Shown: in pieces, positions 7,715-58,462 of the stretch
Position numbering within the stretch: the stretch's first letter is position 1
Layout of the letters: the number at the start of each line of letters is the position of its first letter
Assembly (NCBI RefSeq): GCF_963921235.1
Contig: NC_086107.1
Location: 103,108,001 to 103,168,000 of the forward strand
DNA length: 60,000 nt
Direction: 5' to 3'
Source: Mobula hypostoma
Lineage: Eukaryota
Made by a program: the position numbers and the translations under genes
The notes under the pieces: generated by a model
Seen by the model: the letters and a program-made list of their open reading frames with translations, nothing else
Told to the model about the DNA's origin: nothing
The model's database searches: none

Positions 7715-9539
7715 TATATCTGTGACACTGCTCATTACTATAAGCTCTGCTCCATGACACAGTCTGAGCAGGTAGGTTGAGTTTGATACTTGGTGGTACG
7801 CGAGGGGGATGGTGGCGAATCAAATATATTCTTGTGTCCAGGGTTGGATCTTTGTAAATAAATGTTAATGTCATTATTACTCTCCCATTTATTGTTGGCT
7901 GGCAGACCAGACCTGGAGCTTGGCCACTGGGAATACCCAGAGTCAGTGCTGGACTGGCTGAGGTTTGAACAAGCCTGTCGCTCTTGTGCTGGCAAGCTGA
8001 CTACATGGTTCAGGTTTGAGTTGAGTCATCTGTCAAAATACTGAGAACCCACTGAGCTCAAGAACTTTTTATACCCTAATGCTGTGCTGGGTAGGAAACC
8101 CATTCCCTACGGTACAAAAGGCTGCAAGCTGACCAGAAATCATAGTCATACAACATGGAAGCAGACCCTTCAGCCCATCAAGTCCATGATGTCCACCAGT
8201 GCCACACTCATTCCATTCTATTCTTCCCACATTTCCATCAGCTCTGACCCAGATTCTCCTATTTACCTTCATGCTGGGGGAATTCACAGCAGCGAATTAA
8301 CCAATCATCCCTCAGCATTGAAGGTTAAGTTTGAACCCATCTGGTGCTGAGGCAGTAGCTCCGTTAGCTGTGTCACTGAGTCATCCCAGGGTATAGAATT
8401 GTCAAAATATTTATCATTCAAAGCTTTTACAGATTAGGTCTTCCCTTTGCAGTTTCAAATACTATTAAGGAGACATAAATAATATGGTTTAATATTAGTA
8501 AGTTATTTCGGTGAGGTTTCAGTTCCCTCCCATTGATTCCTTTGCCCATGTTGAGGACAATTCAGAACTTCTCCAGAACTTTGTCTGTGCTCTGGTCTGG
8601 AATGTTAATATTATTGCAAGCAGATGCTGGAAGAACTAAGTGAATGTCCCTACTGTCCATCCCTGATATTGGTTAACAACCTCAGAGATTTGAAGAACTA
8701 AAACTGAACCTCCTGGCCAGGTCCATAGGCGAGGTCTGGGAGAGAAAGTAAATCTTGAACATCTGTCAATAAATTAAATAAAATGGAATTGGAAATGTTG
8801 GTGGATGGGAGAGTGTGAAACTAAGAGGTAGAAAGGTCTCCTGATGAAATCTCCCACAGGAGTTTGTGAACCTAAGGAATGATTACCTGACCCTACGGCA
8901 GTGAGAGGCTAGATCTACAGCAGTCTAGGTTCTTCCCTGTACAGTTAAAGATAATGGGATCATCATACTGGTTTGGAGAATCCACAGTGAAAGCTCTAAT
9001 GGCTCCATCAGAGATGAAGTCAGGGCAGATTAGTCATGAATATATTGACTAGCAGGATGAACTTAAAAGGCTGAGTGGCCTGCTCCTGCTCCAAGTTTCT
9101 TATGTAATCCTCAGTTTAAGACAGTCAGTTGCAGAATGGCTGGTATTACAGATATCTTACCTGTCAATCTAAATCCACAAAATCCAGACATGTTCTAGTG
9201 CAGTGTGGCAGATGTTGTCTTCTCGATGCGTGGTAATGATTCCGAGACACCAGAGCTGAGTTGTTGTTCTTGGTGCCCCACTCACTACTACTCTCCAAAT
9301 TCACTGAAATCTGTCGTCAGACTTTCCTAAGCTTGCTGAGCAGTGTGCTTCTCAATGTTCCAATTAAGAGTAATTAAACCCGATCCACCTCCCCACCATC
9401 TCCTGAAAATTACATCCTTTCAGTTATTTACCCAGCTCCCTTTTGAATGCTACACACAAACCTGCCTCCATAGCACATTCCAGATCTTATGCATTTGCCA
9501 TTTCAAAACTGTTTCCCCTCCCATTACTCTTGGCTATTT

Positions 9540-10440
9540 TGTCAGAGTCATACAGCAGGGATTCAGGCCCTTTGGCCCAATAAAATGCCAACTACATGAC
9601 CACCTAGCTAATGGTAATTTCCTTCATTTGGCCAATATCCCTCCAAGCCCTGCCTCTCTATGCAAATACTTCTTAAATGTACCTGCCTCAACCACTTCCT
9701 CTGGGAGCTCATTCCACGTACCCACCACCCTCTGAGTGAAAAAATAAATCCCTTCAGGTCCCTTTTAAATGACTACCTTCTCACCCTATATCTGTGCCCA
9801 TAGTTTGTACCCTGCCACTGGGGAAAAGATTGTTACCACCTACATTATCCATGCTCTCACAATTTTAAACATTTCCCTAAAGTTGCACCTCATGCTCCTA
9901 CGTTCCAATCTCTCCCTACAACTCAGGCCCTCTCTCCTGTCAACATCTTGGTAAATCCTTTTTATACTCTTTCCAGTTTAACCACATCCTTCTCATAACA
10001 GGGTGACTAAAACAGTAGCTAGTACACCAAATGCAGTCAATGATTTATACAACTGCAACCTAATGTCCCAAATCCTATACTTAATGCCTGGCATAATGAA
10101 GACCAGTGTGCTAAACACCTTTTTCATCACCCTGTCCATCTGTGATGCCGCTTTTAAAGAACTACGTGTTTGTACTCTTCCCATCCCTCTGTTTCATTAC
10201 ACTCCCACCCTTAGTGCCCTACCATCCACAGTACAGGCCCCGTTGTTGGTTTGATCACCTCACACTTATCTGTATTGAAATTCATTTGCCACTTCTCAGC
10301 TCACTTCATTAACTGATCAAGAATTCCCTGTAGTCTATGATAACCTTCTTTGCTATCAACACCACCACCTAATTCCGTGACATCTGCAAACTTACTGATC
10401 AAACCTTGTGCATTCACATCCAGATCATTTTCAAAAAACT
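9540..10440 (-). mobile_element. Degenerate CR1 LINE 3' portion
   Basis: ORF 9993..10184 (SLKAASQMDRVMKKVFSTLVFI..GIKYRIWDIRLQLYKSL) is a decayed CR1 ORF2 C-terminus. Confidence 0.7.
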
Positions 10441-10533
10441 GAATAACAATATACCATCAATAACAGGTATATTGCTTTGGATACTATCAGGGCGTTACCT
10501 AGTAGAGGAAAGTCACAGCAGACATGGAACCCT

Positions 10534-10744
10534 AACAACAGGAATTCTGCAGATGCTGGAAATTCAAGCAACACACATCAAAGTTGCTGGTGAATGCAGC
10601 AGGCCAGGCAGCATCTCTAGGAAGAGGTGCAGTCGACGTTTCAGGCCGAGACCCTTCGTCAGGATGAAGGGTCTCGGCCTGAAACGTCGACTGCACCTCT
10701 TCCTAGAGATGCTGCCTGGCCTGCTGCGTTCACCAGCAACTTTG
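10534..10744. mobile_element. Palindromic non-autonomous Penelope-terminus element with hammerhead motif
   Basis: 83-bp inverted arms (10578-10660 / 10663-10745), flanked by the direct repeat AGACATGGAACCCT (10520-10533 and 10745-10758). The arm sequence matches the 3' terminus of the Penelope element at 49.7-49.85 kb. Confidence 0.85.
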
Positions 10745-10758
10745 AGACATGGAACCCT

Positions 10759-11735
10759 GTTCTGTGGCTCAGAAGGGAAGGGGAAGAAGAGGCAAACCAT
10801 AGTGATAAGGGATTCAGTGGTGAGGGGAACAGATAGGAGGTTATGTGGACAACAACAAGATTCCCAGATGGTACGTTGCCTCCCAGATGCCAGGGTTGGG
10901 GCCATCGCAGATCAAGTCTACAGCATTCTTAAGTGGGAAAGTCAGCAGCCATAAATCGTGGTCCACGTGAGTACCAATGACACGGGTAAGAAGAGTGACA
11001 AAGTCCTGCAAAAAGAGTTCGGGAGTTAGGTGCCCAGTCAAAGGACAGGAACTCCAGGGACAATTTAAAACAAATCAGAGGTGCAAGGAGACTCTGTAGT
11101 CTTCGTGCGGGACTCCCTGAAGTTTAACCCGCAGGTTGAGTCGGTGGTAAGAAAGGCAAATGTAATGTTAGCATTCATTTCAAGAGGACTAGAATATAAA
11201 AGCAGGGGTGTAATGCTGCGGCTTCATGAGGCATTGGTCAGACCAAGTTTGGAGTATTGTGAGAAATTTTGGGCCCTTTATCTAAGAAAAGACGTGCTGG
11301 CAATGGAGAGTCCAGAGGTTGTTCATGTGAATGATCTGGAATGAAAGATAACATGACAAGTGTTTGATGGCTCTAGGTCTGTATTTGCTGGAGTTCAGAA
11401 GAATGAGAGGAAATCTCATTGAAATATCAAATATTGAAAGGTCTACCTAGAGTGGATGTGGAGAGGAGAGGATGTTTCCTATAGTGGGAGAGTCTATCTA
11501 GACTAGAGCACGGCTTTAGAATAGAGGGGTGTCCATTTAGAAGAGATGAGGAGGAGTTTCTTTAACCAGAGTGGTGAATCTGTGGAATGCGTTGCCACAG
11601 GTGGCTGTAGAGGCCAAGTCATTATGTATATTTAAAGCAGACGTTGATAGGGTTAATAAATCAGCCATGATGATGGAATGGTGAAAGACCCAATGGGCCG
11701 AATGGCCTAATTCTGCTTCTATATCTTATGGTCTC
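10759..11735 (+). mobile_element. CR1 LINE remnants: ORF1 esterase-like fragment joined to ORF2 3' end
   Basis: IVIRDSVVRGTDRRLCG..VRCLPDARV (SGNH-like ORF1), then VVRKANVMLAFISRGLEYKSRGVMLRLHEALVRPSLEYC and a CR1 3' tail (GGGCCGAATGGCCTAATTCTGCT). Confidence 0.75.
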
Positions 11736-12109
11736 ACTACCACATTTGCTTTTATTTCACCAATGTTCTTCCCTTTCTGCCTCGGCCCCTTTAAACCATT
11801 GGGCTTCAGTCTTGATGACAAAACTAAAGAGTGGCACTTTATGAAACACTTTTAAGAATTCTATATATATTACATCGACCGTGTTCCCCTTATTGACCCT
11901 GTTACTGAATTCATCAGACTTGATTTGTCTCATTGATGTTGACCTTCTCTAGTCAATCTAAGTTTGTCAAAGTAACTACTAATTTTGTTTCTGATTTTTT
12001 CTGGAACTTTTCCTGCCACTGTGATAAAAGTGACTGGTTTGTAGTTGGGTTTAATCTTTCATCCTCTCTGAACAAAGATATGCCACATGCTTGGTTGTGC
12101 CGGATGATG

Positions 12110-19134: not shown

Positions 19135-19735
19135 GAGCAACACACACACAAAATGCTGGGGGAGCTTGCAAGTCAGGCGATGATGGTGGGAATTAAACAG
19201 TCAATGAGACCTTACATCGGGACTGGAGAGGAAGGCGGAAGAGGTCAGAATAAGGTGAGGGAGGGGGAAGGAGTAAAAGCTGGCAGGTGATAGGTGAGCA
19301 GGGGGGAAGTAAGAAGCTGGGAGGTGATAGGTGAGACAGGTGAGGGGGAAGGTGGGTTGGAGGGGTAAAGGGTGGGGTGGGTGGTGATAGGTGGACAAGG
19401 TAAAGGGCTGAAGAAGGAGGAAACTGACAAGAAAGGACAGTGGACTCTGGGATAAAGGGAAGGGGGTGGGAAACCAGAGGGAGGTGATGGGCACGTCATG
19501 AGGTCAGGGGAAGAGAAGGAGTGAGAAGGGCCACCTTCACCCATCACCTGTCATTCTCCTCTCTCCTCACCTTCTTATTCTGGTTTCTGCCCATTTCCTT
19601 CTCAGTCCGAGGGGTCTCGGCCCGAAACGCTAACTGTTTATTCCCCTCCATAGATGCTGCCTGACTTGCCGAGCTCCTCCAGCATTTTGTGTGGATTGCT
19701 CAGGATTTCCAGCATCTGTAGCGTCTCTTGTATCT
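19135..19735. mobile_element. Penelope-like 3' termini in inverted arrangement
   Basis: Left terminus on the minus strand, a purine-rich tail, then a right terminus on the plus strand with a degenerate GGGTCTCGGCCCGAAAC motif. Confidence 0.65.
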
Positions 19736-28013: not shown

Positions 28014-28360
28014 TCAGTGTGGAGGTGAGTGACAAACGGTGGTGACGGAATCAATCTGTGTGTTTGACTATAACATGCAGTACTTTTCCTTCTATCGTTA
28101 GACGTAGGTGCTGAAACCCTACGGGGGGGAGGAGTGAGGGGGAGACGGGGACAAGTGTTTAGATTGATGTGTGTGAGAGGGAGCGCGCAAGAGAGAGTGT
28201 GAAAGAGAGCACATGAGAGAGAACATGTCAGAGAAAGACAGAGCGAAAGCACGCGAATAAACGTTTACGCGTGTTTGTTCGTTCATGTGCGTGCATGCGC
28301 GTACAGGTGTGTTCTGACAGGCTCAGGCCATGTCTGACCGTGTGCGGGGACATGCGGTAC

Positions 28361-29149
28361 CTGCTGAGGGGATGTGCCGTCTTGCCAGGTCCCTGCCCAC
28401 CTCCGCCCGGGGTCCCGGCGGCGCAGACCCCTGCGCCAGCGTAGATGATCTTCAGCATGGTCCAGATCTGAGCCACCTGGTAACGCCTGAGCTGCCGGGC
28501 CACGGCGGCGTTGCGGTCGCAGAGCTCGGGGAGGGGGCCGCCGCTCAGGCAGTACTGGCAGGCCGTCTGCGAGAACCAGTCCACGGGGGCCGCGGCGCCT
28601 GGCCGCGACTCGAAGACACTCAGGGCGCTCAACACGCTGGTGAACTGCTCGGCGGGGTCCTGGCGCCGCACGAAGAAGAAGGGGTAGCGGCGGTCGGGGC
28701 CGTAGGGCTTGCGGGCCCCCTCGGCCGAGCACAGGCTCTCCTTGACGGCGAACGCCACGTCGCCGAAGAGGCTGACGGACAGCCCCTCTGGGACGGCCCG
28801 GCTGGCCGGGCGCTGGGCGTCCCTGAAGAAGTGGTGGTACAGCGTACTGTCCTTGGATCCAGAGAGCAGGAAGTGCGGGTCGTGGGCGTGGCGCCAGGCG
28901 ATGCCCGTGGTGACATCCTTGTGCTCCTCGAACATGGCGAAGGGGACGTAGGGCCGCCGCACGTCCCACACGTAGATGTTGTGGTCCACCATCATGGAGC
29001 AGGTGGCGATGTGGTACCGGCGCTCGGGCCGCCACAGCACGCGGGCCACGGACGCAATCGTCTGCACGCAGTAGCTCTCCCGCGCTTTGTAGCTGGTCAG
29101 GTCCCATACCTTCACCATCTTGTCTCGGCCCCCCGTCACCAGGCAGCCT
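28361..29149 (-). CDS. WDR24: WDR24 coding exon 3 (WD40 repeats and downstream region)
   Basis: TTCTCCCGCAG|(R)[16 protein letters not shown]...[22 protein letters not shown]...[12 protein letters not shown]...KTAHPLS|GTACCG; 789 nt. Confidence 0.95.
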
Positions 29150-31617
29150 CTGCGGGAGAAACACCGAGATGTCAGAGGTGTCCGGCAAGAACAGACCAGG
29201 GAATCTTATCAACACACCCATTGGGCAGAACGTCCTCAGCGAGAATTAGAACATAGCACAGACTTTCAGCCCAAAATTCTGTGCTGATCAAGATCAATCT
29301 AACCCTTTTCTCCTGTGCAGCTCATAACCCAATATTTCTCTTTCATCCATGCACCCATCTATGAATCTCTTAAATGCCCCTAATGTAACAACCTCTCCCA
29401 CCGCTCCCAGCTGTGCTTCCCAGCTACCCACCTTTCTCTGTGTAAGGTAATGTATCTCCGACATCTTCCCAAAACTTCCCTTCACTCACCTAAAAACAGG
29501 GGTCCCCAAATATTTTATGCCATTAACCGAGGGGCCCCTGCCTCTGGTATTAGTCATATACACCCTGGGAAAATGCTGTCTACTCTTATCTATGTCTCTT
29601 ATCATCCTATACATCTCTTATCAAATCACCTCTCACTCCAAAGAGAAAAGCCCTAGCTCGGCTCAACCTTTCCTCAGCAGACATGCTCTCCAATCCAGGC
29701 AGCATCCTGGTTAAGTCTCCTCTCTCCCCTCCCTAAAGCTTCCACATCCTTCCTATAATGAGCTGACCAGAACTGAACTCACATTCAGTGGCTACTGTAT
29801 TAGGCACACCTGTACACCTACACGTTAATGAGAATATCTAATCAGCCAATCGTGGGGCAGCAACTCAATGAGTAAGAGCATGCTGACACGGTCAAGAGGT
29901 CATTAAGTAGAGGATACAGCTCGGGCAAACATAGCACCGGGCTCAAGGGTAGCTTCTACCTGATGGCAGCAGCCAGAAAAGAGCATGGCCTGGGTGGTGA
30001 GGATCTCTGATGATGGATAAACAAATATAAACTGTGTCCTGCTTAAGGGTCTCGGCCCGAAACGCCAACTGTACTCTTTTCCATAGAAGCTGCCTGACCT
30101 GCTGAGTTCGTCCGGCATTTTGGGTGTGTGTTGCTCGTATTTCCAGCATCTGCAGGTTTTCTCTTGTTTGAAGATTGCTGATGCTTTTCTATGGCAACGT
30201 TTCACGTAGATGTGCTCGATGGTTGGGAGGGTTTATCCATGATGTACTGGGCCAAATTGACTACCTTTTGTAGGATTGTCCGTTCAAAGGCGTATCTAAT
30301 TCTGATGTGGGGAAAAGTTGACTGTTGTTTACCCTACCTATAGTCTTCATTACTTTATATACTTCAATCAAGTCTCTTCTGAACCTCAGCGTGTGTGCAC
30401 ACTAGTGCATCCACCTGAGCACTCGTTTATCACTGTGCACGTTTGCGCAGATGTTCACGCGCACTCAGTTGTGCAAGTACAATTAAAGGTCAGCTGCCCG
30501 ATACTTCATCCGGAGAAGGCTCCAGTAACCAGCACCTTGCAGGGAGGGCACGCAGGTCCACGCTGGGGTAGCTCCCAAGCCGCCATCACAGGTCACCCAG
30601 CACGCCTGATTACCTGACGCGTACCAGGCGATGGTGCTTTTAGTGTACTTGTGCGCTCCTGTACCGGTATACTCAGGTGATCAGGCACGCGGCTGTCAGC
30701 GCCACATGGCCAGAGACCTGGGTTCAATCCGGACTGCCGGTGCTGTCTTTGTGGAGTTCGCATGTTCTCCCTGTGACCTCCAAGTTCCCACCACATCCCA
30801 AAGACAAGCAGGTTGGGAGGTTAATTACTGACTTAGTTAAACAGCACTACACCTACTGGGCAGAGTTGCTCTGTCCTGGGCCATTCTGTCAAGTTGTCTC
30901 GAGAAGACAACCATCCTCTTGATGGGCTACACCAACGAGAAGTAACCCATCGTCCTGGAGTATCCCTCCTCTCCCAGGGATGAGGTCTCTGGAGCTTCAG
31001 TCGTTTCTGGAGCTCTGGCTTCCTACGGGACAGACTGCCAGCTCCGTGCCCAACCCTCTTCCTTTCACAGCCAGGCTCGGGACCGTCCGAGGCCGAGCTG
31101 GGGAGGTTAACTGGCCACTGTGAATTGTCCCCAGGTGAGCTGCAGACGGCTGTAGACTCGCTCCCATCGTGGGCACCAGCCTCCCCACCATCGAGGACAT
31201 CTTCAAAAAGCAAGTACCCCAGGAAGGCGGCATCCACCATGAAAGACCCCTACCATCCAGCACGTGCCCTCTCTCATCAGGAAGGAGGTACGGGAGTCTG
31301 AGGACACACACTTAACATTTTAGGAACAGCTTCTTCCCCTCCGCCATCAGATTTCCAAACGACCCATGAACACTACTTCTATTTGCTCTTTTTATACTAT
31401 TTATTTATATAGATCTTTTAAATAACTTACAGTAATTTTTTTTGGACTACTACCTCAAAACAACAAATTTCACAACATGTATCAGTGACAATAAACCTGA
31501 TTCTGACAGATGACTGGGGATAAGTGTAGGATTAGTGTAAATGGGTGTTTGATGGTCAGCACAAACCTGATGGGCTGAAGGGCCTGTTTACATGCTGCAT
31601 GTCAGAGTGTATTCTTT

Positions 31618-45989: not shown

Positions 45990-46300
45990 ATCTGCAGACA
46001 CAAGAGGGACTGCAGATGCTGGAAATCTAGAGCAATACACACAATGTGCTGGAGGAACTCAGCAGGTCAGGCAGCATCTACGGAGGGGAATAAACAGTCG
46101 ACGTTTCGGGCCGAGACCCTTCATCGGGGCTGGAAAGGAAGGGGGAAGAAGTCCGAATAAGAAGGTGGGAAGAGGGGATGGGGAAGTACAAGGCAGCAGG
46201 GGAAAGCTGAAACAGGGAGAGGGCCCGAAACATCGACTGTTTACTTTTTTCCATGGATGCTGCCTAACCTGCTGAGTTCCTCCAGCATTTTGTGTGCCTT
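45990..46300. mobile_element. Penelope-like termini in inverted arrangement
   Basis: Minus-strand terminus with CCGATGAAGGGTCTCGGCCCGAAACGTCGACTG, then a plus-strand terminus GCCCGAAACATCGACTG..CCTCCAGCATTTTGTGTG. Confidence 0.7.
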
Positions 46301-47101
46301 GCTAAATGAATAGTCCTATATAAGCTTTGAGAGTCTAGACCAGGAACTCGAAACCTGGTGTCCACAGACCCCTCGGTTAATGGCATAAAAAAGGTTGGGT
46401 ATAGCACCAATCTGGTAAGACATTCCAAGGGTTTAGGAGCCTCATCAGACCTCCCATAATATTGTGAGCAGGAGCTGGCCACGTACAAATTCAAATCTGC
46501 TCCTCTATTCAGTAGCCTGACCCCAGGCGCACATCTACTGCGTAACCCTTGGTTCGCACAAGATCGTAACGCAGTTGCTATGGCCATGGCCTTCCAGAAC
46601 CGGGTTCAACCTTGACCTGGGGCGCCATCGGTGACTGCATGATCTTGCGGAGACCAGGCTGGTTCTCCTCTGGGTGCTCTGGTTTCCCCTCATACCACAA
46701 ACTGTAGTTTGTCCCTCGTGGCGTAGGTGAGGGGTAGAACATGAGGAAGGTTGTTGGCAATTAAACAAAATGGTTTATGTAGGATGAGATTAAATGGGCA
46801 CTTAATAAGACCATTATAAGAGGAAGATTAGGCCATTTGGCCCATCAAGTCTACTCCACCAATCATGCCTGATTTACTTTCCCTCAAACCCCATTCTCCC
46901 GTTTTTTTCCCCCATTAACTTTTGACATCCTTGCTAATCGAGAACCTATCAACCTCCACTTACTCTATATGCAACGACCTGGCCTCCGCAGCCGACTGCA
47001 GCAATGAATTCCACAAATTCCACATACCCTCAGGCTAAAGAACTTACACTTCAACTCTTCTACAGCGGTCTCTTTTTCTAAAGCTGTGTCCTTTGGTCTT
47101 G

Positions 47102-49711: not shown

Positions 49712-50071
49712 CAGATACAAGGAAATCTGCAGATGCTGCAATTTCAAGCAACACACAGAAAAATTGATGGTGAACGCAGCAGGCCAGGCAGCATCTCTAG
49801 GAAGAGGTACAGTTGACGTTTCGGGCCGAGACCCTTCGTCAGGACTAACTGAAAGAAGAGCTAGTAAGAGATTTGAAAGTGGGAGGGGGAGGGGGAGATC
49901 CAAAATGATAGAGGAAGACAGGAGGGGGAGGGATGGAGCCAAGAGCTGGACGGGTGATTGGCAAAGGGGATATGAGAGGATCATGGGACAGGAGGCCCGG
50001 GAAGAAAGACAAGGGGGGGGGGGACACAGAGGATGGGCAAGGGGTATAGTGAGAGGGACAGAGGGAGAAAA

Positions 50072-50112
<41 letters not shown>

Positions 50113-51460
50113 AATAAGTAGATAGACAGATAAATAAATAACGGATGGGGTACGAAGGGGAGGTGGGGTATTAACAGAAGTTAGAGAAGTCAATGTTCAT
50201 GCCATCAGGTTGGAGGCTACCCAGACAGAATATAAGGTGTTGTTCCTCCAACCTGAGTGTGGCTTCATCTTTACAGTAGAGGAGGCTGTGGATAGACATA
50301 TCAGAATGGGAATGGGACATGGAATTAAAATGTGTGGCCACTGGGAGATCCTGCTTTCTCTGGCGGACAGAGCGTAGGTATTCAGCGAAACGGTCTCCCA
50401 GCCTGCTCTGGGTCTCACCAATATATAGAAGGCCGCATCGGGAGCACTGGACGCAGTACATCACCCCAGCCGACTCACAGGTGAAGTGTCGCCTCACCTG
50501 GAAGGACTGTCTGGGGCCCTGAATGGTGGTAAAGGAGGAGGTGTAAGGGCATGTGTAGCACTTGTTCCGCTTACAAGGATAAGTGCCGGGAGGGAGATCA
50601 GTGGGGAGGGATGGTGGGGACGAATGGACAAGGGAGTCGCGTAGGGAGCGATCCCTGTGGAAAGCAGAGGGGGAGGGAGAGAAAGATGTGCTTAGTTGTG
50701 GGATCCCGTTGGAGGTGGCAGAAGTTACGGAGAATAATATGTTGGACCCGGAGGCTGGTGGGGTGGTAGGTGAGGACAAGGGGAACCCTATTCCTAGTGG
50801 GGTGGCGGGAGGATGGGGTGAGGGCAGATGTGCGTGAAATGGGAGAGACGTGTTTGAGAGCAGAGCTGATGGTGGAGGAAGGGAAGCCCCTTTCTTTAAA
50901 AAAGGAGGACATCTCCCTCGTCCTGGAATGAAAAGCCTCATCCTGAGAGCAGATGTGGCAGAGACGGAGGAATTGCGAGAAGGGGATGGCATTTTTGCAA
51001 GAGACAGGGTGAGAAGAGGAATAGTCCAGATAGCTGTGGGAGTCAGTAGGCTTATAGTAGACATCAGTAGATAAGCTGTCTCCAGAGATAGAGACAGAAA
51101 GATCTAGAAAGGGGAGGGAGGTGTCAGAAATGGACCAGGTAAACTTGAGGGCAGGGTGAAAGTTGGAGGCAAAGTTAATGAAGTCAGCGAGCTCAGCATG
51201 CATGCAGGAAGCAGCGCCAATGCAGTCATCGATGTAGCGAAGGAAAAGTGGGGGACAGATACCAGTACAGGCTTGGAACATGGATTGTTCCACAAAGCCA
51301 ACAAAAAGGCAGGCATAGCTAGGACCCATACGGGTGCCTATTGCTACACCTTTAGCTTGGAGGAAATGGGAGGAGCCAAAGGAGAAATTATTAAGAGTAA
51401 GGACTAATTCCACTAGACGGAGCAGAGTGGTGGTAGAGGGGAACTGGTTAGGTCTGCAAT
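49712..51460 (-). mobile_element. 5'-truncated Penelope-like retroelement (RT + GIY-YIG endonuclease) with one frameshift
   Basis: ORF 50598..51413: GVAIGTRMGPSYACLF, FLRYIDD, LPFLD, VYYKPTD. ORF 50171..51064: CKRNKCYTC linker, VMYCVQCSRCGLLYIGETQSRLGDRFAE, VATHFN, RLEEQHLIFCLGSLQPDGMN. Frameshift near 50650-50690. Confidence 0.92.
49810..49847 (-). ncRNA. Minimal type I hammerhead ribozyme motif in the Penelope terminus
   Basis: RNA UAGUC-CUGACGA-A-GGGU(CUCG)GCCC-GAAA-CG-UC-AACUG: CUGANGA/GAAA/UH core, stem II, palindromic ACGU stem III. Stem I has one mismatch here but is perfect (CAGUC/GACUG) in the consensus across copies. Confidence 0.7.
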
Positions 51461-51886
51461 TCCACTCCTGGGGTGTAGTCCATCCGGTCCAGGTGACTTA
51501 ACTACCATCAGACCTTTCAGCTTCTCAAGCGCCTCTCCCTTAGTAATAGCAACTACACTCACTTCTACCCCGCAACCTTCTCAAACTTCTGGCATGCTGC
51601 TGGTGTCTTCCTCAGTGAAGACCGAAGCAAAATACTTACTCAGTTCAATACTATTTCTTTGTTCCCTCTAGTTCGGCATGGACTAGAAGGGCCAAGATGG
51701 CCTGTTTCCATGCTGTAATTGTTATATGGTTATAATTCCATCTCCCTTATTATTTTCCAGCGGTCCAGTGTCCAGTCTTACCTCTTTTACTCTTTTTTTT
51801 TGAAAAATCGTTTGGCTTTTGGTATTCTCTTTTATATTATTGGCTGGCTTACTTCCTTAACTCTAATGTTATCTCCTTATTGCTTT

Positions 51887-52012
51887 GTCCTGACAAAGGG
51901 TCTCAGCCCGAAACATCGACTCTTCCTAGAGATGCCGCCTGGCCTGCTGCGTTCACCAGCAACTTTTATGTGTGTTGCTTAAAATTCCAGCATCTGCAGA
52001 TTTCCTCGTGTT
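51887..52012 (+). mobile_element. 126-bp Penelope terminus insertion
   Basis: 13-bp TSD TCCTTATTGCTTT (51874-51886, 52013-52025). The insert begins at a degenerate hammerhead motif. Confidence 0.8.
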
Positions 52013-52649
52013 TCCTTATTGCTTTATTAGTTGCCTTCTGTTAGCTTTTAAAAGCTCCCCAACCCTCTAACTTCTCACTAATTTTTGCTGTACCGTATGC
52101 CCTTGCTTTTGTTTTTATGCTGTCCTTGAGTTCCCTTGTCTGCCAAGGTAGTGGCCAGTACAGACTCAGTGGGCCGAAGGGCCTGTTTCAGTTCTATGAC
52201 CCCCGCCCCCCCCAAAACCTCCAAGAGATCAAAGATCTCTCTCTGTCTCAGCTTTAGTGACTCACCCTCTGCACAGGGAAGATGAGCACAAGCCTGGTAG
52301 GAGAAGAGCTTTGAACATGGTATTCAGCCCACAGTGACCAAGCCAGCAGCCACGAAGCCCACCTAGACCAATCTCTTCTGCTAGCACATGGGTCTTATCC
52401 CTCATCTTAAAAAGGGTGAGAGGTTAGGGAAGGAATTCCAGGAACTGGAATCCAGGTCCCTGGGGACCAATAACAGAACAATTACTACAGGGGGGGCTAG
52501 AAGTGGAGTTGATCAAAGATCGTAGAGGGCTGATGGGCTGGGCAAGGTTACAACGAGGCCACGAATTTGGATGGAAATCACAAAATCAATTAGATGGGAT
52601 TAGTTGGATTGGCATCATGGTTAGTTCAGACATGATGGGCCAAACCCTG

Positions 52650-54135: not shown

Positions 54136-55318
54136 GAGTCCAGGGTTGGGTTGAGGGGGGACGTGGAGGGAATGAAGTGGGTTTTTAGTATAATTGGGTG
54201 CTTGGGAATCATTTTGAACGCTGTGATTTGGGATTGCAAGGCCGTGCTCGTGCAGGTCAGTGAGAGGGCGGTCAAGAATATCAGCACAGTGCAGGGAATC
54301 GTCAGCTGCAACCCTGACCCCAGCCGAGATCCAGGAGAGCTCAAATTGGGGAGAATCGCGGATGATGGGTGATCTACATCTCAAAGCCTCCGTGTCTGAA
54401 AGCCACATACTTCCTTTTGAACTCAAACCACTGTAGGTTCCCCTTTCTCCGGGAAGGGTAACGTGGCCAGTTCTGCTCACTTGCACCAGCCTGCCCGCTA
54501 TCGAGGACATATAAATAGAAATGGTCCAGTAACATCATGAAGGACCACACCCACCCGGCTCATGGACTGTTTGTCCCACTCCCATCAGGGAGGAGGCTAC
54601 GTAGCATCCACATCAGGGCCACCAGACTCAAAACCAGTTACTTTCCCCAAACAGTGAGGCTGATCAACACCTCCACCCACTAACTCCACCGCTACTTTAT
54701 TATTTCATGTCAGCCATACAATCAATGGATATACAATCAATCTACGTATTCATATTTATCGTGTGTTTTATTGTGTTCTTTATCTCGTTTTTTTTGTGCT
54801 GCATCGGATCTGGAGTAACAATTATTTTGTTCTTCTTACACCTGTGTACAGGGATTGACATTAAACAATCTTGAATACTCCACAGGAATATCCCTCCCAT
54901 ACTTATCACGGGGACTTGCACGTGATCTGGTGAAGTGAGGCCGCGCAGGAAACAAAGACATTTCAATTTCAATAGGTACATTTAATGTCAGAGAAATGTA
55001 CACAATATACATCCTGTAATTCTTTTTCTTCGCAAACATCCACATACAGCAGTGGTTCCCAACCTGTCTTCGTGCCATGGGCCAATACCATTAAGCAAGG
55101 GGTCCGTGGACCCCAGGTTGGAAACTTCTGATTTAGAGCATTAAACAACCTGCTGAAGGAACTCAGCAAGTCCAGCAGCATCTTTGGAGGGAAAAGAATT
55201 GTTGATGTTTCCGGTTGAAACCTGAAACACTGACCCATTCAGGCATCGGGAGCTTTGGGGTCCAGGTGTCCATTCTGCTGTCTGCTTGTTGAACATGAGT
55301 GGGTGTACCTGATCCCAG

Positions 55319-57631
55319 CTCATTGGTCAGCTCCCTACCCCATCTCCTCATTGGTCAGCTCCCTACCCCGTCTCCTCATTGGTCAGCTCCCTACCCCATC
55401 TCCTCATTGGTCAGCTCCCTACCCCGTCTCCTCATTGGCCAGGCCCCTACCACGTCTCCTCATTGGCCAGGTCCCTACCCCGTCTCCTCGTTGGTCACGT
55501 CCCTGCCCCGTCTCCTCATTGGTCAGGCCCCTACCCCGTCTCCTCATTGGTCAGCTCCCTACCCCATCTCCTCGTTGGTCATGACTGTACCCCATCTCCT
55601 CATTGGTCAGCTCCCTACCCCGTCTCCTCATTGGTCAGCTCCCTACCCCGTCTCCTCATTGGTCAGGCCCCTACCCCGTCTCCTCATTGGTCAGCTCCCT
55701 ACCCCGTCTCCTCGTTGGTCATGACCGTACCCCGTCTCCTCATTGGTCAGCTCCGTGCCCCATCTCCTCATTGGTCAGGCCCCTACCCCTTCTCCTTATT
55801 GGTCAGCACCCTACCCCGTCACCTCATTGGTCAGGCCCCTACCCCGTCTCCTCGTTGGTCACGACCGCACCCCGTCTCCTCGTTGGTCATGACCGTACCC
55901 GGTCTCCTCATTGGTCAGCTCCGTGCCCCGTCTCCTCATTGGTCAGCTCCGTGCCCCGTCTCCCCATTGGTCAGGCCCCTACCCCATCTCCTCGTTAGTC
56001 ACGACCGCACCCCGTCTCCTCATTGGTCACGACCGTACCCCGTCTCCTCATTGGTCAGCCCTGTGCCCCGTCTCCTCATTGGCCAGCTCCGTACCCTGTC
56101 TCCTCGTTGGTCAGGCCCCTACCCCGTCTCCTCGTTGGTCACGTCCCTGCCCCGTCTCCTCATTGGTCAGCTCCCCATCCCATCTCCTCATTGGTCACAT
56201 CCCTAATCCATCTCCTCATTGGTCAGGCCCCTACCCCATCTCCTCGTTGGTCACGTCCCTGCCCCGTCTCCTCGTTGGTCAGGCCCCTACCCCGCCTCCT
56301 CATTGGTCAGGCCCCTACCCCGCCTCCTCATTGGTCAGGCCCCTACCCCGTCTCCTCGTTGGTCACGACCGCACCCTGTCTCCTCGTTGGTCATGACCGT
56401 ACCCGGTCTCCTCATTGGTCAGCTCCGTGCCCCGTCTCCTCATTAGTCAGCTCCGTGCCCCGTCTCCCCATTGGTCAGGCCCCTACCCCTTCTCCTTATT
56501 GGTCAGCACCCTACCCCGTCTCCTCATTGGTCAGGCCCCTACCCCATCTCCTCGTTAGTCACGACCGCACCCCGTCTCCTCATTGGTCACGACCGTACCC
56601 CGTCTCCTCATTGGTCAGCCCTGTGCCCCGTCTCCTCATTGGCCAGCTCCGTACCCTGTCTCCTCGTTGGTCAGGCCCCTACCCCGTCTCCTCGTTGGTC
56701 ACGTCCCTGCCCCGTCTCCTCATTGGTCAGCTCCCCATCCCATCTCCTCATTGGTCACATCCCTAATCCATCTCCTCATTGGTCAGGCCCCTACCCCATC
56801 TCCTCGTTGGTCACGTCCCTGCCCCGTCTCCTCGTTGGTCAGGCCCCTACCCCGCCTCCTCATTGGTCAGGCCCCTACCCCGCCTCCTCATTGGTCAGGC
56901 CCCTACCCCGTCTCCTCATTGGTCACATCCATACCCTATCTCCTCATTGGTCAGGCCTCTACCCTGTCTCCTCATTGGTCACGTCCCTATCTCGTCTCCT
57001 CATTGGTCACGTCCCTACCCCGTCTCCTCATTGGTCAGGCCCATACCCCGTCTCCTCATTGGTCAGGCCCATACCCTGTCTCCTCATTGGTCACGACCGT
57101 ATCCCGTCTCCTCATTGGTCACATCCCTACCCCGTCTCCTCACTGGTCACATCCGTACCCTATCTCCTCGTTGGTCAGGCCCCTACCCTGTCTCCTCATT
57201 GATCATGTCTCTACCCCGTCTCCTCATTGTTCAGGTCCCTACCCCGTCTCCTCATTGGTCATGACCGTACCCCATCTCCTCATTGGTCATCTCCCTACCC
57301 TGTCTCCTCATTGGTCACGTCTGTACCCCATTTCCTCATTGGCCAGGCCCCTACCCCGTCTCCTCATTGGTCAGCTCCCTACCCGGTCTCCTCATTGGTC
57401 AGCTCCCTACCCGGTCCCCTCATTGGTCAGGTCTCTACCCCGTCTCCTCATTGGGCATCTCCCTACCCTGTCTCCTCATTGGTCACGTCTGTACCCCATT
57501 TCCTCATTGGCCAGGCCCCTACCCCGTCTCCTCATTGGTCAGGTCCCTACCCGGTCCCCTCATTGGTCAGGTCCCTACCCCGTCTCCTCATTGGTCAGCT
57601 CCCTACCCGGTCTCCTCATTGGTCAGGTCCC
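55319..57631. repeat. Minisatellite, 28-bp unit, ~83 copies, consensus CTCATTGGTCAGCTCCCTACCCCGTCTC
   Basis: The first (55319) and last (57615) unit starts are exactly 82 x 28 bp apart. There is an internal duplication at a 560-bp offset. Confidence 0.97.
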
Positions 57632-58462
57632 CTCCCTGTTGGTCCTGCCACCTATCACTGCCACAGTTTGGAGATAAGCAGTCATTGGAAGCAGTTCCTT
57701 CCCTTGTCCTCTGTGCACATCAGAAACCAGAAGAGCTTCACAACACCCTGTGACTCAAGTTCAGCATCCTGGCCATACTTGGGGCCCAAGTTTAAACACA
57801 AGAGATTCTACAGATAGTGAAAATCTTAAAACAATACACACAAAATGCTGTTGGGGGGGGGGGGAGAGGAGAACTCAGTACTCGGCCTGAAACGCCGACT
57901 GTTTATTCCCTTCCATAGAAACTGCCCGACTTGCTGAGTGGGGTCCTCCAGCATTTTGTATCTGAGGCTCAAAATTTAAAAAAGCTGTTGCCTCTCAGAT
58001 TGACTACACAGTGATACTGCAGGAAGGACAAAGAAACCCGTTAACACACACACACACAGCTCAGCTACTTATATACTGTAATTTAAAATAGACCAGTTAG
58101 TCAAAAAAGAAGTCGTACCTTATGATATTAAGGAGTCGAGTGCTGTTGTTTGTCAGCACCTTGTCCTAGCTGGTTTCGTTACGCAAAAAGGCTGCAGGCT
58201 CAGACGGTCTCACCTCTCCCACGCCAGCCCTGCCTTCTGCAGGCACCCGGCGCCGCTGCGCTCGGAGCCGGCGGCATGCCCCTCGCTTGCAGCCCACTGC
58301 GGCTTCCCTGCGGGGCCGGACAGGAAGAGGGAAGACGTCCTGCTGCAGGGCCGTCGCAGGGCCATCTAGAGGCCGGAGAGGGCAGTGCAACCCCCGCCTT
58401 TCTTCAAGCCCGGAGCCTGTCGCCGTATTTTTAGGGTTTTGTAACGAGACCCAAGACAACAC

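What the first reader, a model, noticed from the sequence alone, without database searches (positions are those of the whole stretch)
10520..10758. 211-bp palindromic hammerhead-bearing retro-unit with a perfect 14-bp target-site duplication
Seen: insert 10534-10744 is flanked by AGACATGGAACCCT on both sides. It forms an 83-bp hairpin (10578-10660 / 10663-10745) with only two G-T mismatches and a 2-nt loop. The fold-back point sits at the start of a hammerhead motif: the minus strand has CUGACGA-A-GGGUCUCGGCCU-GAAACGUC-GACUG, while the plus arm lacks the initial CU. Known: Penelope-like elements carry minimal hammerheads in their terminal repeats and often insert with inverted termini. Inference: either a tiny non-coding ribozyme-containing Penelope parasite (retrozyme- or SINE-like) or a snapshot of template switching at the ribozyme. 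A transcript in either direction would give a long dsRNA hairpin.
Basis: partly seen in the sequence, partly recalled or inferred. Interest (0 to 1): 0.72.

Follow-up and report, generated by a model that had tools for sequence, protein, structure and literature searches.

The report
Head-to-head stump of Penelope retrotransposon
This 211-base hairpin is a real insertion made of two back-to-back copies of the ribozyme-bearing end of a very common Penelope-type jumping gene, likely built once as it landed and predicted to fold so that its ribozyme cannot cut, so it is an ordinary example of a published insertion pattern and likely not a new mobile RNA.

Summary
Observation confirmed: 14-bp TSD, 83-bp arms, two mismatches, both CpG-to-TpG changes. 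The arms are the 3' end of an abundant Penelope-like element (PLE); a copy at 49714-51470 continues into RT, a CX4CxxC linker and GIY-YIG. Head-to-head arms, palindromic junction, one-sided tail and TSD are published PLE features (PMC3846280, PMC8557442). Three other inverted copies in the window have other junctions. The turn lies 27 nt upstream of the predicted cut, on a GTC-AG-GAC micro-palindrome of the element. Contigs from other loci turn at or within 3 nt of this point, at low depth and with 1-5 differences; none listed is exact. So the turn is a recurrent hot spot, not shown to be one mobile unit. The hammerhead keeps 2 of 5 stem I pairs and needs about 54 kcal/mol to form. No whole genome was held, so copies could not be counted. 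Best reading: dead-end insertion product (about 0.9), likely two primed cDNAs joined by microhomology (0.55) or cDNA fold-back (0.3). The scan has noted this pattern many times, in this genome and others.

The parts
10520..10533 (.). left copy of the 14-bp target-site duplication
   Evidence: identical to 10745-10758; one change (10522 A>G) in organism B
10534..10577 (-). one-sided extension (44 nt) of the long arm, holding the PLE 'tail' between the outer end (about 10534) and an inner end (about 10567)
   Evidence: unpaired in the hairpin; loose contig ends pile up before 10534/10540 and 10567-10569 in all 4 runs; tail described in PMC8557442, PMC3846280, PMC11167929
10578..10660 (-). long (left) arm of the hairpin: PLE 3' end, element sense on the minus strand
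   Evidence: 91% identical to the end of the protein-coding copy at 49720-49844
10630..10664 (-). minimal type I hammerhead motif: core 10662-10656, stem II 10654-10643, GAAA 10642-10639, predicted cut 10635/10634; stem I reduced to 2 pairs
   Evidence: motif search, pair count and constrained fold; numbering by the min-HHR description in PMC4209133
10658..10665 (.). junction: GTC-AG-GA(C>T), a 3-bp micro-palindrome native to the element
   Evidence: sequence, alignment with continuing copies
10663..10745 (+). short (right) arm: inverted copy in element sense, lacks the core's CU and the last 44 nt
   Evidence: 81 of 83 complementary to the left arm
10745..10758 (.). right copy of the target-site duplication
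49714..51470 (-). 5'-truncated, frameshifted coding copy of the parent family (RT with YIDD, CX4CxxC linker, GIY-YIG, same 3' end); not part of the insert, identifies the family
   Evidence: translation; Pfam RVT_1 E 0.094 and GIY-YIG E 0.006, both below cut-off; 249 relatives at E<=1e-10 among 1939 candidates, many with PF00078 and some with PF01541

Best explanation
The insert is two head-to-head copies of the 3' end of an endonuclease-bearing Penelope-like retrotransposon inside a 14-bp target duplication, likely built during one insertion event when two cDNAs, each primed from one of two staggered nicks, stopped near the hammerhead's 5' edge and were joined through a 3-base microhomology, leaving a copy predicted to be dead. 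Shown: family identity, arm orientation, TSD, one-sided tail, junction on GTC-AG-GAC, CpG nature of the mismatches, weak stem I. Inferred: (1) the GIY-YIG endonuclease nicks both strands 14 nt apart; (2) the top-strand nick primes from the outer start (10534) and the bottom-strand nick from a site 11 nt inside the usual inner start; (3) both cDNAs stop just 5' of the CUGA core, probably because the RNA begins there; (4) GAC at the end of one cDNA anneals to GTC of the other, flaps are trimmed, gaps filled; (5) two CpGs decayed later. About 0.9 that it is an insertion by-product and not a mobile unit; about 0.55 for this two-primer route.
For: Family and domains. Published pattern: inverted pLTR, palindrome at the junction, tail on one arm, 8-10-bp TSDs (PMC3846280; PMC8557442). 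A purified PLE protein cuts and extends both strands, starts at two internal sites and does not need hammerhead cleavage (PMC11167929). Three other head-to-head copies in the window (19135-19733, 46000-46303, 57796-57977) have different junctions; in the first two the short-tailed arm ends at the inner start, and their arms are unequal in length. In the 46-kb copy the arms are 84% alike and differ in a block that looks subfamily-specific, which fold-back cannot give. 7 of the 11 long-arm copies aligned begin 2-11 nt upstream of the core, 4 continue upstream, 0 begin at the cut. Contigs show many different inverted joints (13 of 15 listed joints lie inside the insert, all at different coordinates, 1-2 contigs per run each; 160 not shown). 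The empty target is partly symmetric: 6 of the 8 positions around the TSD edges mirror each other (window chosen after the fact). Hairpin about -177 to -181 kcal/mol; hammerhead fold costs 53.9 more.
Against: At this locus the sequence cannot tell two primers from fold-back: both give the same junction. The short arm ends 11 nt inside the inner start, with only 1 base of microhomology to the target, unlike the 19-kb and 46-kb copies. None of the three other inverted copies has a TSD that my search found, so they may be nested or decayed insertions. The solo copy at 51887-52013 has a 13-bp TSD but no symmetric target (3 of 16). 10664 is also where my reference stops matching the family, which inflates joints listed there. 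The same register recurs in 4 of 8 listed X5 contigs, which a small old mobile family would also give. The RNA start was not measured. The 11 aligned copies were picked from about 18 BLAST loci for covering the hammerhead; at least 2 unaligned short arms start inside stem II.
Confidence: 0.55

Rival explanations
1. Same by-product, made by self-priming: one cDNA stops at ...GTCAGGAC, folds back on GTC with a 2-nt loop, is extended on itself for about 80 nt and is then joined to the other target end.
For: The junction is exactly what such a fold-back would write; arms identical but for two CpG changes; short arm ends away from the usual inner start with 1 base of microhomology; self-priming on an antisense template was proposed for PLE palindromes in PMC3846280.
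Against: A 3-bp stem with a 2-nt loop is not predicted to form in the DNA folds of the cDNA end (other weak folds, -0.8 and -1.1 kcal/mol); other inverted copies have long unequal arms, inner-start ends and, in one case, arms of apparently different subfamilies; turns also occur 2-3 nt off this register.
Confidence: 0.3
2. A small non-autonomous palindromic element that is transcribed and re-inserted as a 211-nt unit.
For: Own TSD; 4 of 8 listed X5 contigs cross the turn in the same register; one joint contig of organism B has depth about 1000 against 20-28 for the flanks (10563 to 10663, letters between unknown); cis-acting pLTRs can be mobilised in trans (PMC3846280).
Against: No second copy in 60 kb among about 18 family loci; crossing contigs have depth 2-11 against about 5 for this locus's flanks and differ at 4-5 of 48-57 letters; no exact or deep junction contig listed in 4 runs; 10744/10745 is not among the six listed loose-end sites of any run (845 not shown); no tRNA, A or B box; not tandem; ribozyme predicted locked.
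Confidence: 0.07
3. The turn is caused by hammerhead self-cleavage of the template RNA.
Against: The turn is 27 nt upstream of the predicted cut and both arms keep the uncut site; 0 of 11 aligned copies begin at the cut; cleavage was dispensable and no RNA ends mapped to the cut for the anole element (PMC11167929).
Confidence: 0.03
4. The centre of the hairpin is mis-assembled or a read fold-back artefact.
For: No listed contig carries the exact junction; the best runs lack 3-4% of the sampled words.
Against: Both outer junctions with outward-facing element ends are in contigs of organisms A and B; the arm differences are both CpG transitions; hairpin links of low depth between very deep repeats can be dropped from contigs (own knowledge; the tool says a hole proves nothing).
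Confidence: 0.03

Closest known systems
Complex insertions of endonuclease-bearing Penelope-like elements: inverted 5'-truncated pLTR, palindromic head-to-head junction, one-sided 30-40-bp tail, TSD (Adineta Pen2a, PMC3846280; overview in PMC8557442; passages read)
   Same: Head-to-head arms of the 3' end, palindrome at the junction, extension on one arm only, TSD, hammerhead in the terminal repeat.
   Different: No ORF between the arms (both cDNAs short); TSD 14 bp against 8-10 bp in the passages read; extension 44 nt; a pile-up of turns at the hammerhead's 5' edge is not in the passages read.
Neptune/Nematis-type EN+ PLEs (CX2-5CxxC linker; PMC8557442)
   Same: Parent copy has RT, CX4CxxC linker, then GIY-YIG.
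   Different: No tree was built, so Neptune against Nematis is not decided; the paper calls Neptune paraphyletic.
Minimal hammerheads (min-HHR) of metazoan PLEs (PMC4209133, first two of four parts read)
   Same: CUGANGA core, extra base before stem II, GAAA, palindromic ACGU at stem III, type I layout; reported to be inactive as monomers and weak as dimers.
   Different: Here stem I has 2 pairs, 10.1-11.1 is G-U, and the motif is paired throughout with the other arm.
Non-LTR retrozymes of animals (bioRxiv 10.64898/2026.07.22.740005; first part and passages read)
   Same: Non-coding, PLE-derived, type I hammerhead.
   Different: Retrozymes are head-to-tail tandem units with a complete ribozyme in at least two consecutive units; this is head-to-head with one damaged motif.
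PAc (Poseidon of Anolis) in vitro mechanism (PMC11167929, first two of four parts read)
   Same: Two element ends about 34 nt apart, next to an AC-rich stretch; both-strand cutting would explain two arms.
   Different: PAc prefers AT-rich targets; this target is not AT-rich; the parts read do not treat inverted junctions.

Membership tests
EN+ PLE insertion unit | sequence is the 3' terminal repeat of an element encoding RT then GIY-YIG | tested here: met
   91% identity to the end of 49714-51470; RT YIDD and GIY-YIG in translation; Pfam hits below cut-off; homologues with PF00078 and PF01541
EN+ PLE insertion unit | inverted 5'-truncated copy joined head to head | tested here: met
EN+ PLE insertion unit | tail on one end only | tested here: met
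   44-nt unpaired extension; two family ends about 34 nt apart
EN+ PLE insertion unit | target-site duplication proven by an empty site | tested here: inconclusive
   perfect 14-bp repeat; organism B carries the insert; organism C's contig stops aligning at 10748 but no clean empty-site joint was listed
Neptune/Nematis-type PLE (parent) | CX2-5CxxC linker upstream of GIY-YIG | tested here: met
   CX4CxxC; definition
Neptune/Nematis-type PLE (parent) | RT phylogeny with named clade members | not tested
   no named reference set fetched
min-HHR | catalytic core CUGANGA ... GAAA, NUH cut site | tested here: met
   minus strand only; plus arm lacks CU
min-HHR | stem I of 4-5 pairs and G10.1-C11.1 | tested here: not met
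   2 pairs; G-U
min-HHR | self-cleavage | not testable with these tools
   predicted penalty 53.9 kcal/mol in the full insert; no assay
Non-LTR retrozyme | head-to-tail tandem units, complete type I HHR in two or more consecutive units | tested here: not met
   head-to-head, one core; definition
LTR retrozyme | type III HHR in direct LTRs, 4-bp TSD | tested here: not met
   type I layout, inverted arms, 14-bp TSD; definition
SINE | tRNA-, 7SL- or 5S-derived head with pol III boxes (definition recalled) | tested here: not met
   0 tRNA genes in 9500-11800, no A/B box pattern, no such Rfam hit
SINE or other mobile unit | many dispersed copies with the same two ends and junction | tested here: inconclusive
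   none in the window; low-depth same-register contigs elsewhere, outer ends unseen; no whole genome held

The most novel reading that the evidence does not exclude
These stumps record how endonuclease-bearing PLEs insert: a dimeric enzyme nicks a partly symmetric target on both strands, primes two cDNAs, both run off a short capped RNA that starts at the A just in front of the hammerhead core, and the ribozyme's own GUC-CU-GAC palindrome supplies the microhomology that joins them. The hammerhead would then mark the RNA start and shape the junction without cutting. This was not found in the papers returned; the scan's own earlier notes propose most of it.
Probability: 0.3. Interest if true: 0.55.

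Novelty: new member of a known kind. Interest (0 to 1): 0.17.

Why it matters
As one locus it matters little: it is a clean example of a published PLE insertion pattern and a warning that such stumps mimic MITEs, microRNA precursors (sub-threshold Rfam hits) and retrozymes. The family matters more: how PLEs finish integration and what their hammerheads do are open questions (PMC11167929, PMC8557442), and the pile-up of 5' ends and turns at the hammerhead's foot gives a direct test with capped-RNA mapping and the existing in vitro system.

Tried and rejected
Whole genome: none held, so no copy count. Scan look-up by sequence and by place: nothing. Metagenome scan with a 28-base family motif: 0 matches. 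Rfam: only sub-threshold microRNA and PrrB matches that reflect the hairpin; rejected. Expression: no RNA holder listed on record (X1-X4 and X6-X9 are guessed RNA), so nothing is claimed. First Pfam scan of 12 ORFs at E<=0.01 missed the PLE domains; trimmed pieces gave weak hits. Right flank: its translation looks like a LINE ORF1 esterase of the CR1 kind (recalled); Pfam gave only a chance hit and PDB 0 hits, so the label is untested. Empty site: BLAST of the joined flanks against the window found no paralogue; in organism C not resolved. TSD search on 12 candidate intervals: found for 2 (this insert; 13 bp at 51.9 kb), a 7-mer of doubtful value for 1, none for 9. The constrained-fold control on the 49.8-kb copy is weak because that copy has lost its first stem I pair (penalty 6.0 with stem II only). 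An initiator-like YYANWYY (motif recalled) lies at the hammerhead's foot in 3 of 4 continuing copies but is common by chance (3 hits in 70 nt of one copy): lead only. No exact junction contig in 4 runs: not taken as absence. Literature on this family in cartilaginous fishes: searches listed 4 papers each, none on it by title or abstract start; supplements were not opened and those of the bioRxiv preprint are closed, so its one cartilaginous-fish data set may hold this family.

Full report
Observation. The insert 10534-10744 (211 bases) is flanked by a perfect 14-base direct repeat, which chance would give at about 2e-7. Arms 10578-10660 and 10663-10745 pair at 81 of 83 positions. Both mismatches are C-to-T changes at CpG (10595 and 10665); related copies carry C at both, and the rough chance of two CpG transitions is 0.0016. 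The arms were therefore most likely identical at insertion, and the differences look biological, not like read errors. Contigs of organism A with no differences reach 24 and 27 letters into the insert from the left and right flank; contigs of a relative, organism B, reach 28 letters in from each side, with 22 substitutions in 746 flank bases. These overlaps are below the tool's 31-letter rule for bridging, so they support but do not strictly prove a shared insertion. The exact centre was not in any listed contig.

What the arms are. BLAST finds about 18 loci of the same family in the window. One (49714-51470, minus strand) runs on from the same 3' end into a frameshifted ORF with RT motif YIDD, a CX4CxxC linker and GIY-YIG. 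Pfam hits are weak (RVT_1 E 0.094, GIY-YIG E 0.006), but 249 of 1939 candidate proteins match the RT piece at E<=1e-10, many with PF00078 and some with PF01541; the closest named ones (65-75% identity) are from rays and sharks, so the host is likely a cartilaginous fish. The linker marks Neptune/Nematis-type PLEs (PMC8557442 passages). Summed contig depth over the insert is in the millions against about 5 for this locus's own flank contigs in run X5; this is no copy number but shows a very abundant family. The insert is thus two copies of the element's 3' end joined 5' to 5', the left one 44 nt longer. Loose contig ends pile up at about 10534-10540 and 10567-10569 in all 4 runs: two family ends about 34 nt apart, the PLE tail.

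This layout is published. PMC3846280 (passages) describes an inverted pLTR, a 31-bp tail on one arm, 8-10-bp TSDs and an abundance of head-to-head inverted repeats with palindromes at the junction, read there as self-priming. PMC8557442 (passages) calls the adjacent inverted 5'-truncated copy and one-sided tail typical. PMC11167929 (parts 1-2 of 4) shows that a purified PLE protein cuts and extends both strands, starts at two internal sites that delimit the tail, and inserts normally with a dead hammerhead.

The junction. The element's own sequence reads GTC-AG-GAC at this point, a 3-base micro-palindrome made of the stem I 5' strand and the core. Pairing GAC with GTC and extending gives exactly the right arm. 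The turn is 27 nt upstream of the predicted cut, and both arms keep the uncut site. Of 11 long-arm copies aligned (chosen from about 18 loci for covering the motif), 7 begin 2-11 nt upstream of the core, 4 continue upstream and none begins at the cut; short arms at 46222 and 57881 begin inside stem II. Three more head-to-head copies lie in the window, each with another junction (19135-19733, 46000-46303, 57796-57977); no TSD was found for them. In one search, 13 of 15 listed joints fall inside the insert, all different, in 1-2 contigs per run (160 not shown; joints at 10663-10664 are inflated because my reference leaves the family there). In one search, 9 of 32 listed pieces (11664 not shown) cross the turn: 8 in X5 and 1 in X1, none in X6 or X17, depth 2.2-10.8, none exact and none with 31 letters on both sides. 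Four keep this register with 4-5 differences in 48-57 letters; five are shifted by 2-3 bases. So the junction is not unique in register, but there is no sign of a deep, uniform junction family. I read this as a hot spot of independent events; a small old mobile family is not excluded because outer ends of those loci were not seen.

The ribozyme. The minus strand has a complete core, but the turn replaced the upstream sequence, leaving 2 stem I pairs (5 in intact family sequence, 3 before the CpG change), and pair 10.1-11.1 is G-U. Either strand folds into the long hairpin (-180.5 and -177.2 kcal/mol) and forcing the hammerhead costs 53.9 kcal/mol. The plus arm lacks the core's CU, so no partner for the dimer that such motifs need lies in the same RNA; single min-HHRs showed no cleavage in PMC4209133 (parts 1-2 of 4; also the review PMC6765202, passages). 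Cleavage was not assayed.

Mechanism. Most likely (0.55): staggered nicks 14 nt apart each prime a cDNA, both stop at the hammerhead's foot, probably the RNA's 5' end, and they join by the 3-base microhomology. For it: both-strand activity in vitro, inner-start ends and unequal arms in two other inverted copies, apparently mixed-subfamily arms at 46 kb, and partial symmetry of this target (6 of 8 positions at the TSD edges; 7 of 17 overall). Against it: here the short arm ends 11 nt inside the inner start, the solo copy's target is not symmetric (3 of 16), and the junction is equally what fold-back self-priming would write (0.3). A mobile palindromic unit gets 0.07, cleavage-driven switching 0.03, a mis-assembled centre 0.03. 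All steps after the anatomy are inferred.

Membership. It fits EN+ PLE insertion units on every feature that could be tested, with the empty site unproven. It fails the retrozyme definitions given in bioRxiv 10.64898/2026.07.22.740005 (part 1 of 5 and passages) and shows no pol III head. PMC6155905 was seen as passages only.

Earlier notes of the scan. 24 findings in at least 10 genomes hold the words searched, and notes on this genome describe the same hairpins, the pile-up at the hammerhead's edge and two-ended priming. They are unreviewed AI notes and are not counted as support. They led me to PMC3846280 and to the symmetry test, and raised my weight on the two-primer route, which I had begun to test before reading them (search terms). 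One note on another genome reports ends at the cut site, which this window does not show.

Verdict. Real, ordinary: a new example of a known PLE insertion pattern, likely a dead-end product. Interest 0.17. The family-level question, whether 5' ends mark an RNA start at the hammerhead's foot, is worth testing but this locus adds only one clean case and the micro-palindrome reading of the junction.

Noticed in passing
window 49714-51470 (-): 1.75-kb 5'-truncated, frameshifted PLE copy with RT, CX4CxxC linker and GIY-YIG; a pyrimidine tract ending in AG lies just upstream of its hammerhead, like the intron 3' end at helix I reported for D. virilis Penelope (PMC4209133).
   Followed up: partly
window 19135-19733, 46000-46303, 57796-57977: Three older head-to-head copies of the family with different junctions; the 46-kb arms differ in a block that looks subfamily-specific; no TSD found.
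   Followed up: partly
window 51887-52013: Solo 127-nt stub with a 13-bp TSD whose 5' end is at the same place as the finding's turn.
   Followed up: partly
table 5c, run X5: Four joints from 10664 back into the arm carry CT, CT, CTCTA or CTCCTAGG between: ends at the A four bases before the core, twice followed by a C, as run-off on a capped RNA could give. Very few cases.
   Followed up: no
table 5c, joint 10738 to 10544: A tail-to-tail-like joint with nearly the same 17 letters between in organism A (depth 24.5) and B (depth 500); unexplained, could be one expressed locus or a small family.
   Followed up: no
window 10759-11060: Right flank translates to what looks like a decayed LINE ORF1 esterase (CR1 type, recalled); not confirmed by Pfam or PDB.
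   Followed up: partly
window 28228-29205 (-): Stop-free frame holding a WD40-repeat stretch (Pfam WD40 above cut-off), probably an exon of a host gene.
   Followed up: no
window 55304-57639: Tandem array about 2.3 kb long with a period near 28 bases (self-BLAST).
   Followed up: no
organism C, record 16: Contig aligns to the right flank up to 10748 and goes on for several hundred letters without entering the insert; may be the empty site.
   Followed up: no
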